Positions 7,090 to 29,655 are shown, counted from the stretch's first letter. The stretch: DNA of 64,000 nucleotides from an uncultured Alphaproteobacteria bacterium (GCA_944390885.1 CALXRP010000006.1:2216-66215); one strand, 5' to 3'. Numbers and translations are program-made. The notes: a model not told the origin generated them from the letters alone.

Positions 7090-7464
7090 GTCATTGCCGG
7101 GCACTTTATTTTTTATGTCATCCCAGGGCTTGTTTCTTTCTAGTCATTGCGGGGCGCTTTATTTTTTTAGTCATTGCGGGGCGCTTTATTTTTTTAGTCA
7201 TTGCCGGGCTCTTTTTTTCTTTCGTCATCCCCGGGCTTGACCCGGGGATCCAAATCAAATAAATCAGCTTTATTGTTATTCTGGATCCCCGGGTCAAGCC
7301 CGGGGATGACAGAAAAATAATGTGCCGAGAATAACAAATACTTCAAAGCACTTTGTCATTCACAAATCCAGTTAGAGCAACGCGGTCTCTTGAGCACAGT
7401 ATATTCAACTCGCCGCGCACCTGCCGAGCAGGTGGATCCCCGGGTCGCAGCCCGGGGATGACAA
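7090..7464. repeat. Cluster A of the palindromic MITE/REP-like repeat family
   Basis: Half-sites GTCATTGCCGGGC + T-rich, including 2 exact 30-nt direct copies (7141..7200). Hairpin unit GTCATCCCCGGGCTTGACCCGGGGATCC at 7224..7251 and its exact reverse complement at 7284..7310 give an 87-nt near-perfect palindrome. Conserved core (..GAGCAACGCGGTCTC..CGCCGCGC..) at ~7370..7432, then a terminal inverted unit at 7433..7464. Confidence 0.85.
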
Positions 7465-7611
7465 GTAAAATACAAGCTGCCCAAGGACAACCAGTAAAAA
7501 ACAAGCAGCCCGAAAACGGCCGGTCGTCCGAGAACGACAATATAGATACTATAGCATAAGAAAAGGCACATGTCAAGCATGTCTGAAAAATGGGATAGGG
7601 ATTTTGGCAAA

Positions 7612-7648
7612 AGAAAACAAAAAAATCCTATACCGAGAGGTATAGGAT
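7612..7648 (-). terminator. Rho-independent terminator downstream of rsfS
   Basis: Stem ATCCTATACC / GGTATAGGAT with loop GAGAG, followed on the minus strand by a T-run. Confidence 0.6.
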
Positions 7649-7674
7649 GAAAGTAAAGTTTAGATGTATAAAAG

Positions 7675-8046
7675 TTATTTTGCTGCCCGGACTTCGGCAA
7701 CCGAACTCCACATCTTTTCCAGATTATAAAAATCACGAACTTCCGGTCTGAAAATATGTACAATCACATCAAAAGCATCAATCAGCACCCAATCGGCTTT
7801 TTCCTCACCTTCGGAAGTTGAAGAAAAACCGGATTCCTTAAGTTTCATCTGCACATGTTCTGCCAGAGAGGCCACATGGCGTTGGGAGGTTCCGCTGGCT
7901 ATGACCATATAGCTGGCAATAGAGGTTTTTCCTTTCAAATCGATTGTAACAACATCGTCAGCCTTATTGTCTTCCAATGTATCAACGACAATTTTCAATA
8001 TTTGCTCGTCAGCATTTTCAATATTGGAATTTGTTTTTTTCTTCAC
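7675..8046 (-). CDS. rsfS: Ribosomal silencing factor RsfS (iojap family)
   Basis: 123 aa with the typical ..DDVVTIDLKGKTSIASYMVIASGTSQRHVASLAEHV.. core. Confidence 0.8.
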   Translation of the reverse strand: MKKKTNSNIENADEQILKIVVDTLEDNKADDVVTIDLKGKTSIASYMVIASGTSQRHVASLAEHVQMKLKESGFSSTSEGEEKADWVLIDAFDVIVHIFRPEVRDFYNLEKMWSSVAEVRAAK

Positions 8047-8061
8047 TAATAAACTCCTTGG

Positions 8062-9120
8062 TTAATCTAACGGAGACCAAACTCCACAAGATTTTTCTTC
8101 TTGCGGGGCAGCATCTTCCGTTTTTGCTTTGCGGTCACGGGAAATAAATTTGCTCAAATCTCTCAAACAGTCATAAACACCTTGCTTGGCAACGGCAGAA
8201 ATGGCAAAAACTTTTTTACCGATAGCATCTTCCAATGCCTGCGTTTTTTCTTTTATTTCCTTTTCAGTCAGTGCGTCGCATTTATTAAGGGCAACGACTT
8301 CCGGTTTTGTCATCAATTTTTCGTTATAAAGCTCAAGCTCATTGCGAATCGACTTATAAGCGGCAATAACGTCTTCCTGTGTTGCGTCAACCAAATGCAG
8401 AAAAGCGGCACAACGCTCCACATGTTTCAGAAATCTGTCACCCAGTCCGACGCCTTCATGCGCTCCCTCAATCAGTCCGGGAATATCGGCAATAACAACC
8501 TCATAATTGTCAACCCAGGCAACACCCAAATGCGGATGCAGCGTTGTAAAAGGGTAGTCGGCAATCTTGGGCCGAGCTTGCGTAACTGATGATAAAAAGG
8601 TTGATTTTCCGGCATTGGGCAGACCGATTAACCCGATATCGGCAATCAGTTTAAGCCGGAGCCATACCCAGCGTTCCTCACCCGGCCATCCCGGTTCGGC
8701 ATAGCGGGGCGCCTGGTTGGTCGAGGTTTTAAACTTTGCATTTCCTCTGCCGCCGTCGCCACCTTTGGCAATCAAATAAGTCTGACCGGGCGTAACCATA
8801 TCAACAATCAGTGTCTCGCCGTCTTCATCAAGAATCTCTGTTCCGACCGGAACTTTGATCACGACGGTTTCACCTTTTGCACCGGATTTGTCGGAACCCA
8901 TGCCGTTACCGCCGCGTTTGGCTTTGAAATGTTGATGATAACGAAAATCAATCAGCGTGTTGAGGTTGTCAACTGCTTCAAAAATCACGTCGCCGCCTTT
9001 TGCGCCGTCGCCGCCGTTCGGTCCGCCGAATTCAATATATTTCTCTCTGCGGAAAGAAACGCAGCCTGCGCCGCCGTCGCCTGATTTTACAAAAATTTTC
9101 GCCTGATCCAGAAACTTCAT
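8062..9120 (-). CDS. obg: GTPase Obg/CgtA
   Basis: N-terminal Obg fold ([24 protein letters not shown], Gly-rich [12 protein letters not shown]) and GTPase motifs G1 [18 protein letters not shown] and NKCD. Confidence 0.9.
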
Positions 9121-27609: not shown

Positions 27610-27624
27610 GAAGAGGAACACAAA

Positions 27625-28386
27625 ATGACGAACAAAACAAACGGTATCAAACTTTGGGCAGGAATGCTGCTGATGGCCACATCCCTTTCCGGTTGCGGGA
27701 TTTGGGGACGCCTGACCTCTATCGGCGAGCTTCCGGAGATCAGCCCGATTGAAAATCCGACCGAGGTCAAAAACTATGAGCCCGTAAGTATGCCGATGCC
27801 GCAGCAGATTGAGGCGCAGCCGATGGCAAATTCGTTATGGAAACCGGGATCTTCCGGATTCTTCAAAGACCAGCGGGCATCAAAAGTCGGTGATATCATT
27901 ACCGTCAAAATCTCCGCAAAAGATAATGCATTAATGGAAAACGAAACCGAGCAAAACCGTGATGACAATAAAGATTCTGTCGGAATAACGTCTTTCCTGG
28001 GTTATGAATCTTATGCCAAAGATTATCTGCCGGATGCCGTTGATGCTTCTGATATAATCAATATCACGTCCAACCGCGAGATTTCCGGCGACGGCAAAAT
28101 TGACCGCCAGGAAAAAATTAATATGACTTTGGCCGCAATAGTAACGCAGGTTTTGCCGAATGGTAATCTGGTTATTGAAGGCAGTCAGGAGATTCGCGTT
28201 AACTACGAGCTCAGACAGATGATGGTCAGAGGAATCATCCGCCGGGCAGACATTGCCTCGGATAATACGATTGAATCGAGCAAGATTGCCGAAATGAGAG
28301 TTTCTTACGGCGGAAAAGGTGTCATCTCCGATGTCCAACAGCCGCGTTACGGCCGCCAGTTGATAGACATCATATCGCCATTCTGA
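27625..28386 (+). CDS. flgH: Flagellar L-ring lipoprotein FlgH
   Basis: Lipobox LSG-C and FlgH core (..ITVKISAKDNA.., ..AAIVTQVLPNGNLVIEGSQEIRVNYELRQMMVRGIIRRADI..). Confidence 0.85.
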   Translation: MTNKTNGIKLWAGMLLMATSLSGCGIWGRLTSIGELPEISPIENPTEVKNYEPVSMPMPQQIEAQPMANSLWKPGSSGFFKDQRASKVGDIITVKISAKDNALMENETEQNRDDNKDSVGITSFLGYESYAKDYLPDAVDASDIINITSNREISGDGKIDRQEKINMTLAAIVTQVLPNGNLVIEGSQEIRVNYELRQMMVRGIIRRADIASDNTIESSKIAEMRVSYGGKGVISDVQQPRYGRQLIDIISPF

Positions 28387-28652
28387 CAAAAGTTTCCCAT
28401 ATTATTATGTTTTGTGGTGTTAAAAAATCTCCCCGTTTTTTACCCGCATAGGGGCTGTCGATCCAGAATAGATCCCCAACTTTGCTGGAAAAGCGCAGCC
28501 CCTTTCCCCAAACGGGTCCGTTTAACTTCCCCAATTTGAGCGGACCCGCTTATTATGAAAGAAAAAAGTGAATAGCTTGAAGTTTACGGTTTAAAAGACC
28601 GGTGCGATAGATTATATAAATAGAGAAAAAATTTTTTTTGTAAGGATGCAAA

Positions 28653-29318
28653 ATGAAAAAGACAGTGAACGAAGTAAAACATGCGGAAAACGAAGCCGAA
28701 ATCTTTTTGAAATATGCGCTGGCAATTTCAAACGCTTTTAACGGCGGTGACGAGATGGAGATTCTGACCGCATTGGACAATAACTTAAAATTATGGGTGG
28801 AGATAGAAACCTCTCTCAAAGATGTAAAGAATTTGCTTCCTGAAGATATCAAAGAAAACCTGTTGAAATTGTCAAAGTTTGTTGAGCGGTTGACTCTTTC
28901 CAAAGGGATTCATATGAGCGCACCGGATTATAACTGCCTGATCAATATCAATATGCAAATCTCGGAAGGGCTTCTGGAAGCTGTTAGAAATCATCTGGCC
29001 AAGGCAGAAGCTTTTTCATTGTTAAAATGTGCGCTTGACATTTCAACTGCCCGCGATAACGAGGATAAAAACAGCCTGATCGAAGCGCTTGATAAAAATA
29101 TGAAACTTTGGGTCTATATCAAAACGCTTGCCAATTCCGAAGACAGCAAAATGCCGAAAGAAACCAAAAACAATCTGATCAAACTGGCAGATTATGTTTC
29201 GGCCAAAACACTGGAAGTCGGAAAAAATATTGATAACTTGAACCAAAAAGCGATTGATAGTATGATCATGACCAATCTGCAAATTTCCGAAGGGCTGATG
29301 TCTAAAAAAAGCGCTTAA
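28653..29318 (+). CDS. flaF: Tandem-duplicated FlaF-like flagellar biosynthesis regulator (FlaF-FlaF fusion)
   Basis: Two ~105-aa repeats each matching the FlaF pattern recalled from memory (..L.LW..I......LPE..K.NL..L..FV......L..LI.IN..I.EGL..). Confidence 0.6.
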   Translation: MKKTVNEVKHAENEAEIFLKYALAISNAFNGGDEMEILTALDNNLKLWVEIETSLKDVKNLLPEDIKENLLKLSKFVERLTLSKGIHMSAPDYNCLININMQISEGLLEAVRNHLAKAEAFSLLKCALDISTARDNEDKNSLIEALDKNMKLWVYIKTLANSEDSKMPKETKNNLIKLADYVSAKTLEVGKNIDNLNQKAIDSMIMTNLQISEGLMSKKSA

Positions 29319-29394
29319 CAGAAAATTGCAGCAAAAAACGCGGAGAATAACCTCCGCGTTTTTTTTGTGTGGCTATAACTTTATTTTCTTTCTA

Positions 29395-29655
29395 GTCATT
29401 GCCGGGCACTTTATTTTTTTTCTAGTCATCCCCGGGCTTCGACCCGGGGATCCATATTTCAAAGCACCTTGTCATTCACAAATCCCGTCATAGCAGCGCG
29501 GTCTCTTAGGCACAGTGTATTCAACTCGCCGCGCGCCTGCCGTGCAGGTCATCCCCGGGCTTGACCCGGCAATCCACTTGGCGTCACCCAAAGGGTGTGA
29601 CCCGGGGATCCGTTTGACGTCACACCCTCAGGGTGACACAGAATGACAGAAAAAA
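29395..29655. repeat. Cluster E of the palindromic MITE/REP-like repeat family
   Basis: Half-sites, GTCATCCCCGGGCTTCGACCCGGGGATCC, core (..CATAGCAGCGCGGTCTCTTAGGCACAGTGTATTCAACTCGCCGCGCGCCTGCCGTGCAGG), GTCATCCCCGGGCTTGACCCGGCAATCC, plus a distinct hairpin pair GTCACCC..GGGTGTGAC / GTCACACCC..GGGTGAC. Confidence 0.8.

What the first reader, a model, noticed from the sequence alone, without database searches (positions are those of the whole stretch)
7090..29655. Family of palindromic MITE/REP-like elements at five intergenic loci with compensatory stem variants
Clusters at 7090..7464, 12770..13130, 20812..21015, 24250..25005 and 29395..29655 are all built from one 28-nt hairpin unit, GTCATCCCCGGGCTTGACCCGGGGATCC. 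Variants CTCGGG/CCCGAG and TGCCGG/CCGGCA change both arms together, so the stem is preserved. The unit occurs in both orientations. It forms composite elements of the form [subterminal half-sites GTCATCCCCGGGC + T-run]n - hairpin - ~75-nt conserved core - inverted hairpin - [half-sites]. This looks like terminal inverted repeats around a non-coding core, i.e. a MITE. In cluster A two inverted copies make an 87-nt near-perfect palindrome. In cluster D a ~215-bp composite is tandemly duplicated. Five loci in 64 kb is a high density. Each locus sits at a gene boundary, several directly after stop codons.
Basis: seen in the sequence. Interest (0 to 1): 0.6.

Follow-up and report, generated by a model that had tools for sequence, protein, structure and literature searches.

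The report
REP hairpin mosaics, alphaproteobacterial type
The five repeat clusters are real and belong to a known class of small palindromic bacterial repeats (the alphaproteobacterial "CGTC-tagged" REPs), here built into unusually elaborate, strain-variable mosaics that often sit just upstream of genes for variable secreted or surface proteins.

Summary
The window holds 16 copies of a 28-29-nt hairpin, all at 7.1-29.6 kb. There are also at least 16 half-hairpins in 27-nt arrays and about 10 copies of a ~95-nt core.

The hairpin is not a new MITE. It fits most defining features of the CGTC-tagged REP superfamily (Di Nocera 2013); the tag's first base and one third of the loops deviate. The exact 28-mer occurs in more than 115 loci of other, mostly alphaproteobacterial, genomes, usually as inverted doublets. 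The doublet weakly matches Rfam WsnRNA46, below threshold.

Stem covariation is real. I found no target-site duplication, no fixed boundaries and no transposase.

Contigs from near-identical strains (97-99%) carry a different module string at every cluster. The differences look like slippage and recombination between repeats. Clusters sit at gene gain/loss and synteny breakpoints.

An oriented composite (core, doublet, half-site array) lies upstream of five genes: three paralogues of a Cys-rich secreted family and two autotransporters. More distant relatives lack REPs and cores.

Verdict: a lineage-specific, BIME/NIME-like variant of a known repeat class. The mobilising enzyme and any function remain unknown. 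Interest is moderate to low.

The parts
7069..7223 (+). Cluster A: array of 5 half-REP units with a 27-nt period. Each unit is GTCAT + 5' arm + C followed by a T-rich linker. The array lies directly upstream of the start (7039) of the minus-strand 531-aa gene.
   Evidence: TRF 7090-7236, period 27, 5.5 copies
7224..7310 (.). Cluster A: homodimeric REP doublet. Hairpin 7224-7251 (+), 31-nt spacer, hairpin 7283-7310 (-). It folds as one 87-nt hairpin.
   Evidence: covariance model 104.7 bits
7338..7433 (+). Cluster A: core copy (TTCAAAGCAC ... AGAGCAACGCGG ... GCCGCGCACCTGCCGAGCAGGT).
   Evidence: (family D3)
7434..7462 (-). Cluster A: single REP hairpin, stem CCCCGGG, 6-nt loop.
12770..12798 (+). 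Cluster B: short core remnant (..CCCTCACCCGCCGTGCAG) directly after the rlmH stop codon.
12799..12884 (.). Cluster B: heterodimeric REP doublet (stems TGCCGGA / TCTCGGG).
   Evidence: covariance model 105 bits
12885..12981 (+). Cluster B: core copy ending ..GCCTGCCGTGCAG, joined to GTCAT.
   Evidence: absent together with the doublet in strains L119 and L121
12982..13032 (+). Cluster B: one half-REP unit (12982-13004) plus one hairpin (13005-13032, stem TGCCGGG).
   Evidence: the unit is present or absent among strains, and chimeric hairpins occur in L120 and L131
13033..13126 (+). Cluster B: second core copy, ending in the small hairpin GCCGACGTTCGGC (13114-13126).
20819..21022 (.). Cluster C: half-site (20819), hairpin (20845-20873, +), core type 2 (20874-20968), hairpin (20969-20996, -), half-site (to 21022).
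   Evidence: 173-nt direct repeat at 94% identity with 24787-24959 (family D13)
21023..21074 (+). Cluster C: short core variant ending GCCGCCGTTCGGC. It is the left boundary of the strain-variable segment that carries the autotransporter gene.
24250..24311 (+). Cluster D: half-REP units (one degenerate) directly upstream of the autotransporter start (24172, minus strand).
24312..24714 (+). Cluster D: two tandem 230-bp units. Each holds a doublet (24312-24396; 24541-24626), a core (24397-24484; 24627-24714) and half-sites.
   Evidence: TRF period 230, 2.2 copies, 91%; covariance model 107-111 bits
24715..24997 (.). Cluster D: 3 half-REP units, hairpin (24796-24824, +), core type 2 (24825-24919), hairpin (24920-24947, -), 2 half-sites on the minus strand.
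25205..25269 (+). Two partial core 3' modules (GCCGACGTTCGGC at 25210-25222 and 25257-25269). The second abuts the sigma-54 promoter TGGCACGGTATTTGC (25270-25284) of the flgF operon.
29378..29453 (+). Cluster E: half-REP units plus hairpin (29425-29453), downstream of the flaF terminator.
29454..29547 (+). Cluster E: core copy, absent or deleted in strains L123 and L124.
29548..29650 (+). Cluster E: chimeric hairpin (5' arm CCCCGGG, 3' arm CCCGGCA), small GTCAC-type hairpins, and an orphan 3' half-hairpin.

Best explanation
**What it is.** The clusters are extragenic mosaics built from CGTC-tagged REPs, the alphaproteobacterial counterpart of classical REP sequences. The unit reads N-GTC | 9-bp stem starting AT | loop CTTGA | stem | tail CCA. 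It occurs mostly as inverted, REPIN-like doublets with the tags pointing outward. A pyrimidine-rich flank sits on one side and a purine-rich flank on the other.

**What this lineage adds.** In this group of uncultured, ~44-46% GC Alphaproteobacteria the doublets are combined with two further repeat modules:
- a 27-nt minisatellite made of the T-rich flank plus the hairpin truncated exactly in its loop;
- a ~95-nt core whose 5', middle and 3' segments are themselves shuffled between copies.

**Shown.**
- The hairpin is kept through changes on both arms.
- The family is dispersed across genomes.
- Between strains the clusters change by gain and loss of 27-nt units, by gain and loss of [doublet + core] units flanked by 24-nt direct repeats, and by arm-swapped chimeric hairpins. 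These are the marks of slipped-strand mispairing and homologous recombination between copies.
- The clusters coincide with indel and synteny breakpoints.

**Inferred.**
- The hairpins originally spread as single-stranded DNA or RNA structures recognised by a trans-acting enzyme that is still unidentified. No RAYT or other transposase is associated with them, as already reported for this superfamily.
- Today the clusters behave mainly as near-neutral, recombinogenic repeats.
- The oriented composite found upstream of secreted and surface-protein genes may additionally influence their expression or exchange.
For: **Match to the family definition.**
- The published definition was read (PMC3733652). 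The window hairpins fit it feature by feature.
- In 105 copies from other genomes, 81% have C before GTC, 93% have A after ATCC, and 64% have an inverted partner on the tail side at a median gap of 22 nt. Partner stems are mostly GGCCGGG or TGCCGGG.
- The exact 28-mer is in more than 115 loci, chiefly Alphaproteobacteria.

**Structure.**
- Stem covariation is real.
- The doublet matches Rfam WsnRNA46, a Wolbachia repeat-derived sRNA, at E about 1e-7 but below the gathering score.
- Pyrimidine/purine-rich, partly complementary flanks are shared by 67 doublets elsewhere.

**Strain comparisons**.
- Every strain has a different module string.
- Half-site arrays hold 1-6 units.
- The chimeric hairpins equal a deletion between a half-site and the adjacent hairpin arm.

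**Breakpoints.**
- The autotransporter segment is absent in L123-L125. It is bounded by copies of the core-end hairpin and by a 173-nt repeat at 94% identity.
- A related species joins rlmH directly to flgF across a REP cluster.

**Absence of a mobilising gene.**
- No transposase was found in the window or near 115 loci.
- RAYTs are rare in Alphaproteobacteria.

**Lineage-specific expansion.** Four more distant relatives keep the flgF sigma-54 promoter but have no REP and no core in about 70 kb.
Against: - The mode of spread is not shown. All strain differences can be explained by recombination, so nothing here proves that the elements ever transpose.
- The tag is CGTC in only 3 of 16 window copies (T 6, A 5, G 2).
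- Five of 16 loops have 6 nt instead of the family's 4-5.
- Clusters are called rare for this superfamily.
- The strain contigs are metagenome assemblies of unknown read type. If they were built from short reads, some array lengths or joins could be assembly errors, although the same variants recur in independent assemblies.
- The recurrent position upstream of secreted-protein genes hints at a function that a purely selfish/neutral reading does not predict.
Confidence: 0.75

Rival explanations
1. Classical MITE. The hairpins would be terminal inverted repeats of a non-autonomous element with a non-coding core, moved by a DDE transposase encoded elsewhere.
For: - The H - core - inverted H units of about 150 bp look like TIRs around a core. 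Two copies at 20836-21008 and 24787-24959 are 94% identical.
- Relative to L140, the window has an extra ~270-nt block [array + doublet] at the same site.
Against: - No target-site duplications (and inspection).
- Boundaries and module order differ in every copy and every strain.
- The same hairpin occurs alone or as short doublets, without any core, in more than 100 other genomes.
- No transposase was found.
Confidence: 0.06
2. Regulatory cassette. The oriented composite (core - doublet - half-site array) would be a portable promoter or 5' control region for contingency genes. The strain-variable number of 27-nt units would tune their expression.
For: - The same module order and orientation lies upstream of the 531-aa Cys-rich secreted-protein gene, two of three examined paralogues at other loci, and the unrelated autotransporter.
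- A second autotransporter-like gene in L130 also has REPs upstream.
- Half-site arrays contain promoter-like ATGACA-N16-GAGAAT matches.
- Core modules abut both sigma-54 flagellar promoters seen.
Against: - Clusters B, C and E have no gene start on the array side.
- No consistent -35/-10 could be placed in all four upstream regions.
- Paralogues may simply have been duplicated together with their upstream DNA.
- The L148 paralogue and the L138 autotransporter lack the composite.
- Four relatives keep the flgF promoter without any core.
- The sample is small and was chosen after the fact.
Confidence: 0.15
3. Active REPIN-like system. An unidentified single-strand-specific nuclease would recognise the GTC tag plus hairpin and still move doublets. 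Half-sites and loop insertions would be by-products of cleavage in the loop.
For: - Tag, loop, AT base of the stem and tail are conserved across classes while the stem middle varies. This is the pattern expected of protein recognition of a hairpin.
- Half-sites end exactly in the loop.
- Another small element is inserted exactly at CTTG^A of the loop in several strains.
- All ~10 cores in the window share one strand, as do 4/4, 2/2 and 2/2 in three other contigs.
Against: - No candidate enzyme was found.
- The literature likewise found none.
- No clean filled-versus-empty site in unique DNA was seen among strains.
- The strand bias could come from local duplication.
Confidence: 0.2
4. Small RNA genes or 3'-end RNA hairpins (terminators or stabilisers).
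For: - The doublet matches the sRNA family WsnRNA46 at 43 bits.
- Clusters B, C and E follow stop codons.
- The folds are strong.
Against: - The match is below the gathering score (65.3) and equal on both strands, as expected of any palindrome.
- No T-run follows any hairpin in either direction. T-runs precede them, and the terminator scan finds none at the hairpins.
- The core shows no supported consensus fold: 4 pairs and no covariation.
Confidence: 0.1

Closest known systems
CGTC-tagged REP superfamily (Di Nocera, De Gregorio & Rocco 2013, PMC3733652), 9-bp-stem / 5-nt-loop families
   Same: - GTC tag, 9-bp stem beginning A-T/T-A, CTTGA loop and CCA tail.
- Inverted, mostly heterodimeric doublets in extragenic positions.
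- Alphaproteobacterial host.
- No associated transposase.
   Different: - The first tag base is variable here.
- One third of the loops have 6 nt.
- Copies form large clusters, which the paper calls rare.
- The 27-nt half-REP arrays and the ~95-nt core are not mentioned in the passages of that paper that I read.
E. coli BIMEs (bacterial interspersed mosaic elements) - from my own knowledge
   Same: Extragenic mosaics of REPs in alternating orientation, combined with other short conserved motifs.
   Different: - Unrelated sequence (GTAG-type REPs with a RAYT).
- BIME linker motifs bind IHF; nothing comparable was shown here.
- BIMEs have no half-REP minisatellites.
Neisseria NIMEs (dRS3 repeats flanking RS units) and Correia elements
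   Same: - dRS3 is filed as CGTC-1 in the 2013 paper.
- These are mosaic intergenic arrays of short inverted repeats around 50-150-bp units.
- Their position near surface-protein genes and their association with recombination is from my own knowledge.
   Different: - Different unit sequence and stem length.
- Neisseria uses dRS3 as a prophage integration site; no such use was seen here.
REPIN-RAYT systems (Bertels & Rainey)
   Same: The replicating unit looks like an inverted REP doublet that can fold into one long hairpin. The doublet spacer is conserved between species.
   Different: - The tag is GTC, not GTAG.
- No RAYT was found.
- RAYTs are rare in Alphaproteobacteria.
Rfam RF02625 WsnRNA46 (Wolbachia) and Rickettsia palindromic elements RPE-4/RPE-6
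   Same: - All are built from the same superfamily of hairpins. WsnRNA46 aligns to the doublet arm for arm.
- The RPEs are filed as CGTC-4 and CGTC-1.
   Different: - The score is 43 bits against a gathering score of 65.3.
- RPEs also insert in frame into genes; no intragenic copy exists in the window.

Membership tests
CGTC-tagged REP superfamily | Unpaired terminal tag CGTC (TGTC and CCTC variants accepted) | tested here: inconclusive
   GTC is present in 16 of 16 window copies. The preceding base is C in 3, T in 6, A in 5 and G in 2, so 9 of 16 carry an accepted tag. In 105 copies of the same 28-mer elsewhere it is C in 81% and T in 14%.
CGTC-tagged REP superfamily | Stem of 8-9 bp whose first two pairs are A-T and T-A | tested here: met
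   16 of 16 copies have a 9-bp stem starting AT. Fifteen are perfectly paired. The AU and UA pairs are invariant in 25 distinct sequences.
CGTC-tagged REP superfamily | Loop of 4-5 nt of a few major sequence types | tested here: inconclusive
   11 of 16 copies have CTTGA. Five have 6-nt loops (CTTCGA, CATCGA, CTGCGA), outside the family's 4-5 nt.
CGTC-tagged REP superfamily | Short unpaired 3' tail fitting CCA | tested here: met
   16 of 16 copies have CCA. A follows ATCC in 93% of copies elsewhere.
CGTC-tagged REP superfamily | Mostly inverted dimers; not associated with a transposase gene | tested here: met
   The window has 4 doublets plus hairpin-core-hairpin units. 64% of copies elsewhere are in doublets. 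No transposase was found.
REPIN-RAYT system | GTAG tag, and a cognate single-copy RAYT gene flanked by the repeats | tested here: not met
   The tag is GTC. No Y1 transposase was found among the genes examined in the window or near 115 loci. The rest of the genome could not be searched.
MITE | Target-site duplication flanking each copy | tested here: not met
   Direct-repeat counts at the flanks of 67 doublets are at chance level. None is visible in the window.
MITE | Discrete, consistent ends and length; a related autonomous IS with the same ends | tested here: not met
   Module strings differ in every copy and strain. No IS was found.
BIME/NIME-type mosaic | Extragenic clusters of REPs in alternating orientation, interleaved with other conserved motifs | tested here: met
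BIME/NIME-type mosaic | Binding of IHF, gyrase or a recombinase to the linker or hairpin | not testable with these tools
   This needs biochemistry. On inspection, no spacer contains a full match to the IHF consensus.
Rfam RF02625 WsnRNA46 | Score at or above the family's gathering threshold (65.3 bits) | tested here: not met
   The best score is 43.1 bits, with equal matches on both strands.
Intrinsic terminator | G+C-rich hairpin followed by a T-run | tested here: not met
   T-runs lie 5' of the hairpins. The terminator scan finds none at the hairpins.
Sigma-54 upstream activator site of flgF (for the core) | Conserved upstream of the orthologous promoter in relatives | tested here: not met
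   The promoter is conserved in L141-L144, but no core lies upstream of it.

The most novel reading that the evidence does not exclude
The CGTC REPs of this lineage are still being moved by an unrecognised nuclease or recombinase specific for single-stranded hairpins. It would act at the GTC tag and in the loop. The loop-truncated half-site arrays, the loop-targeted insertions and the single-strand orientation of all cores would be its footprints. The many co-occurring strains in public metagenomes would then offer a natural system for finding the enzyme that the CGTC superfamily has lacked since 2013.

A related reading is that the oriented composite is a portable control cassette for variable secreted-protein genes.
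Probability: 0.15. Interest if true: 0.6.

Novelty: new variant of a known kind. Interest (0 to 1): 0.35.

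Why it matters
REPs of the CGTC type are abundant in Alphaproteobacteria. Their origin, mobilising enzyme and function are unknown, and the 2013 survey found no dedicated transposase.

This lineage shows them in an unusually dynamic state. The mosaics differ between strains that are 97-99% identical. 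They mark the sites where surface-protein genes come and go, and where gene order breaks between species. They also recur upstream of a large family of Cys-rich secreted proteins.

That makes two things testable with data that already exist as metagenomes: how such repeats drive local genome plasticity, and whether any enzyme still acts on them.

For annotation, the practical point is narrower. ORFs called across these clusters (for example 6939-7262, 7356-7763 and 24217-24846) are probably spurious. The clusters are also likely sites of assembly breaks.

Tried and rejected
1. **Rfam.** There is no hit at gathering thresholds in the window. With E-value thresholds only the doublet matches WsnRNA46, and the core matches nothing.
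2. **Core as a structured RNA.** RNAalifold on 16 diverse cores gives one 4-bp helix and no covariation. Single-sequence folds are only weakly better than shuffles.
3. **Core as the native sigma-54 enhancer of flgF.** This was suggested by its position at flgF in three lineages and at the flagellin promoter. I rejected it because four relatives keep the promoter without any core. I wanted to compare the core with the Caulobacter FlbD ftr consensus, but the paper is not held.
4. **Terminator function.** No T-run follows the hairpins.
5. **Associated transposase.**
   - I clustered ORFs within 2.5 kb of the 28-mer in 115 loci. This gives only common housekeeping families (ABC ATPase, SDR, histidine kinase).
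   - Pfam and NCBIfam scans of window ORFs find none.
   - A weak IS110 hit on the BcrAD/BadFG ATPase gene is at its cutoff with no significant stretch, inside a protein otherwise confidently BcrAD/DUF2229. I read it as a cross-match.
6. **Target-site duplications.** None found.
8. **REPs at other variable sites.** There are none in 30-64 kb of the window, nor in 8 strains there, even next to an inserted autotransporter.
9. **Literature search for the sequence itself.** The one hit is an unrelated Acinetobacter paper, which I did not read.
10. **Integron attC and dif/Xer sites.** I considered both from memory, because the unit is 28 nt and flanks variable genes. I dropped them because the consensus motifs do not match and no integrase is present.

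Full report
**1. The observation**

- The 28-mer GTCATCCCCGGGCTTGACCCGGGGATCC occurs four times exactly and once with two mismatches. Shuffles expect none.
- The half-site pattern GTCATNNNNGGGC occurs 29 times against 0.36 expected. All hits lie in the five stated clusters (sequences).
- A scan that asks only for GTCA(T/C), and then looks for the best 9-bp stem, finds 16 family hairpins.
  - Fifteen are perfectly paired. The stem middles are CCCCGGG (8), TCTCGGG (5), TGCCGGA (1) and TGCCGGG (1).
  - The sixteenth, at 29548, has arms from two different types.
- Sixteen half-sites (GTCAT + 5' arm + C) are each followed by a T-rich 14-nt linker.
- Tandem Repeats Finder reports 27-nt arrays at 7090-7236 (5.5 copies) and 24715-24808 (3.5 copies). 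It also reports a 230-bp unit repeated 2.2 times at 24275-24781.
- A ~95-nt core occurs about ten times, always on the + strand.
- A covariance model of the doublet, run with filters off, finds nothing outside 7-30 kb. The one weak hit, at 49749, is an ordinary terminator.

**2. Is the stem compensation real?**

- I collected every sequence in the window and all fetched loci that matches GTCAT-N7-CTTGA-N7-ATCC, with the stems left free.
- This gives 25 distinct sequences. Ten have perfectly complementary N7 arms, representing ten different stems. Re-pairing the arms at random gives 1.65.
- On the alignment, 92% of cells pair. Four of nine pairs change on both sides. The 31 both-side-changed cells compare with 12.2 +/- 2.6 in shuffles (0 of 500). 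Slid partners pair only 20-50% of the time.
- The compensation is therefore real.
- It does not by itself prove selection for structure. Hairpin-templated repair, or conversion between arms, would give the same pattern.

**3. What the hairpin is**

These are overwhelmingly Alphaproteobacteria: Ancylobacter, Dongia, Alsobacter, Stellaceae, Aliidongia and others. A few MAGs are labelled otherwise and may be misbinned.
- In those genomes the 28-mer usually forms an inverted doublet with a second hairpin of different but self-complementary stem.
- Of 105 copies with enough flank, 81% have C before GTC and 93% have A after ATCC. 64% have an inverted partner on the tail side, at a median gap of 22 nt. 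Partner stems are mostly GGCCGGG or TGCCGGG.
- This matches the published definition of the CGTC-tagged REP superfamily (Di Nocera et al. 2013, PMC3733652):
  - a terminal CGTC, often TGTC;
  - a stem of 8-9 bp beginning with complementary A/T residues;
  - a loop of 4-5 nt;
  - a CCA tail;
  - predominance in Alphaproteobacteria;
  - mostly inverted dimers, heteromeric in the 9-bp families;
  - no dedicated transposase.
- The window copies meet the stem, tail and dimer features. Two are met only in part: the first tag base is variable, and a third of the loops have six bases.
- The doublet also aligns, arm for arm, to Rfam WsnRNA46, a Wolbachia sRNA. It scores 43 bits against a gathering score of 65.3, equally on both strands. 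That fits a distant member of the same repeat superfamily. It does not establish an sRNA gene.
- The paper files Neisseria dRS3 and the Rickettsia elements RPE-4/RPE-6 under the same superfamily.

**4. What it is not**

- No target-site duplication flanks 67 doublets in other genomes. Direct-repeat counts are at chance for every offset and length.
- Instead, the flanks are 75% pyrimidine on one side and 71% purine on the other. They are slightly more complementary than shuffled partners (4.22 against 3.51 +/- 0.15 of 10).
- The T-rich linker of this window is therefore the low-GC form of a flank that belongs to the element.
- No hairpin is followed by a T-run, so none is an intrinsic terminator.
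- No transposase or RAYT gene was found among the window ORFs scanned or the genes called on strain contigs that cover 1-54 kb.
- I clustered ORFs within 2.5 kb of the 28-mer across 115 loci, without prior assumptions. Only common housekeeping families recur.
- RAYTs are reported as rare in Alphaproteobacteria (PMC5581495).

**5. The organism and its strains**

- The window carries ordinary alphaproteobacterial chromosomal genes: uvrC, obg, rsfS, rlmH, transketolase, an OmpR-type regulator, flgF-flgH and flaF.
- Exact-protein look-ups recovered about two dozen contigs from NCBI MAGs and ENA metagenome assemblies that are 97-99.99% identical to the window. Sources label relatives only as "Alphaproteobacteria bacterium".
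- These strains differ at every cluster:
  - *Cluster B.* Flanks are 100% identical, but the [doublet + core] block is present or absent between 24-nt direct repeats GCGCGCCTGCCG(C/T)GCAGGTCAT. A 23-nt half-site unit comes and goes, and one strain has extra units.
  - *Cluster C.* The half-site array has 1 to 6 units.
  - *Cluster E.* The core is deleted in two strains. The window's mismatched hairpin at 29548 stands where those strains have a perfect one.
  - *Chimeras.* The chimeric hairpins in L120, L131 and the window equal a deletion between a half-site and the 5' arm of the adjacent hairpin.
- All these changes are what slipped-strand mispairing and homologous recombination between repeats produce. 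None requires transposition.
- Caveat: these are metagenome assemblies of unknown read type, so some arrays could be mis-assembled. However, identical variants recur in independent assemblies (window = L117/L126; L119 ≈ L121).

**6. Larger consequences**

- The autotransporter gene (21083-24172) is absent in three strains. The missing segment is bounded by two copies of the core-end hairpin GCCG(C/A)CGTTCGGC. Clusters C and D share a 173-nt repeat at 94% identity.
- In a related species (86-92% identity), rlmH is joined to the flgF promoter across one REP cluster. The 12.5 kb between window clusters B and D lies elsewhere in that genome.
- REPs are not at every variable site. There are none in 30-64 kb in eight strains, even beside an inserted autotransporter.
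- The indel of the 531-aa gene with cluster A is bounded by an unrelated 15-nt repeat.

**7. The core**

- The core matches nothing in Rfam and has no supported consensus fold.
- Its 5', middle and 3' segments are recombined between copies. The 3' segment is one of several small hairpins with CGT(C) loops.
- Core modules abut the sigma-54 promoter of flgF in three lineages. One of these, L140, has a core but no hairpins. Core modules also abut the flagellin promoter.
- I tested whether the core is the native enhancer of flgF. In four relatives with 67-79% FlgF identity, the promoter TTGGCAC-N5-TTGCA is conserved. What precedes it is a terminator and AT-rich DNA, and about 70 kb of sequence holds no REP at all.
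- The core, like the REP clusters, is therefore a lineage-specific repeat.

**8. An oriented composite upstream of secreted-protein genes**

- The 531-aa ORF next to cluster A has a signal peptide and is very cysteine-rich.
- It belongs to a large uncharacterised family: 408 hits, with a conserved N-terminal two thirds, a variable C-terminus and several paralogues per MAG.
- Paralogues at two other loci carry the same upstream order and orientation as cluster A: small hairpin, inverted core, hairpin or doublet, (A-rich linker + half-site)n, RBS. A third paralogue does not.
- The unrelated autotransporter has the same order upstream.
- This could reflect three things: duplication of genes together with their upstream DNA, tolerance of repeats next to dispensable genes, or a regulatory role.
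- I could not place a consistent promoter. The ATGACA-N16-GAGAAT matches in the arrays are consensus hits only.

**9. Verdict**

- The finding is real.
- It is a lineage-specific, elaborate variant of a known repeat class: CGTC-type REPs organised like BIMEs or NIMEs. It is not a new kind of element and not a classical MITE.
- Shown:
  - membership of the superfamily;
  - structure-preserving variation;
  - dispersal across genomes;
  - strain hypervariability through repeat-mediated rearrangement;
  - location at breakpoints.
- Still inferred:
  - how the hairpins spread, since no enzyme is known here or in the literature;
  - whether the composite affects neighbouring genes.

Noticed in passing
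window 5444-7039 (-); paralogues in L145 4001-5209, L147 4001-5272, L148 4001-5389: The 531-aa ORF has a signal peptide and is extremely cysteine-rich. It belongs to a large uncharacterised multi-copy family: 408 hits, with a conserved N-terminal ~65%, a variable C-terminus, and no Pfam or NCBIfam match. The gene is absent in strains L118-L121 and truncated or rearranged in L116.
   Followed up: partly
L120 ~6190-6280 (-), L127 10866-11010, L130 10757-10919; truncated in L125 11108-11159 and L129 ~11035-11085: A second non-coding element of about 110-170 nt, ending ..GGGGCCCGCTTGCGGGAATTTAC, is inserted exactly in the hairpin loop (CTTG^A) with no duplication. It has no Rfam match. It looks like a loop-targeting passenger element.
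   Followed up: partly
window 25016-25050 and on to ~25200; also L125 ~10964-11100, L129, L063: Another dispersed repeat begins with the hairpin CCCCCTCTTTGCTAAGAGGGGG followed by AGGGGG(C/A)GTTAGA. It is terminator-like on the minus strand and lies between cluster D and the flgF promoter.
   Followed up: no
window 25270-25284; L118 18962, L119 19217: Sigma-54 promoters lie upstream of flgF (TGGCACGGTATTTGC) and of the flagellin gene (TTGGCACAAATTTTGCA). The ORF start called at 25233 is therefore wrong: flgF starts at 25332.
   Followed up: yes
window 60149-63941: A low-GC (~34.5%) segment carries genes for a WYL/WCX-domain protein, a PD-(D/E)XK nuclease and an AAA ATPase. It is probably an acquired defence island.
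   Followed up: no
window 42640-43366; L138 11413-14955; L132/L136: This is another strain-variable site. Depending on the strain it holds a 128-aa ORF, nothing, or a 1180-aa autotransporter. No REPs are nearby.
   Followed up: partly
window 15873-15974; L127 3859-5871: In six strain loci (five assemblies), a ~2-kb segment with a 585-aa ORF (no Pfam match) replaces 102 bp of the window between the transketolase gene and the next gene. No REPs are involved.
   Followed up: no
window 23022-23696 and 49855-50208: There are coding tandem repeats: a 90-nt period in the autotransporter passenger domain, and a 60-nt period in the 142-aa ORF at 49845-50273.
   Followed up: no
window 6939-7262, 7356-7763, 24217-24846, 13009-13230: These mechanical ORFs of 73-209 aa run through the repeat clusters. 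The one scanned (7356-7763) has no family match, and all are almost certainly spurious.
   Followed up: partly
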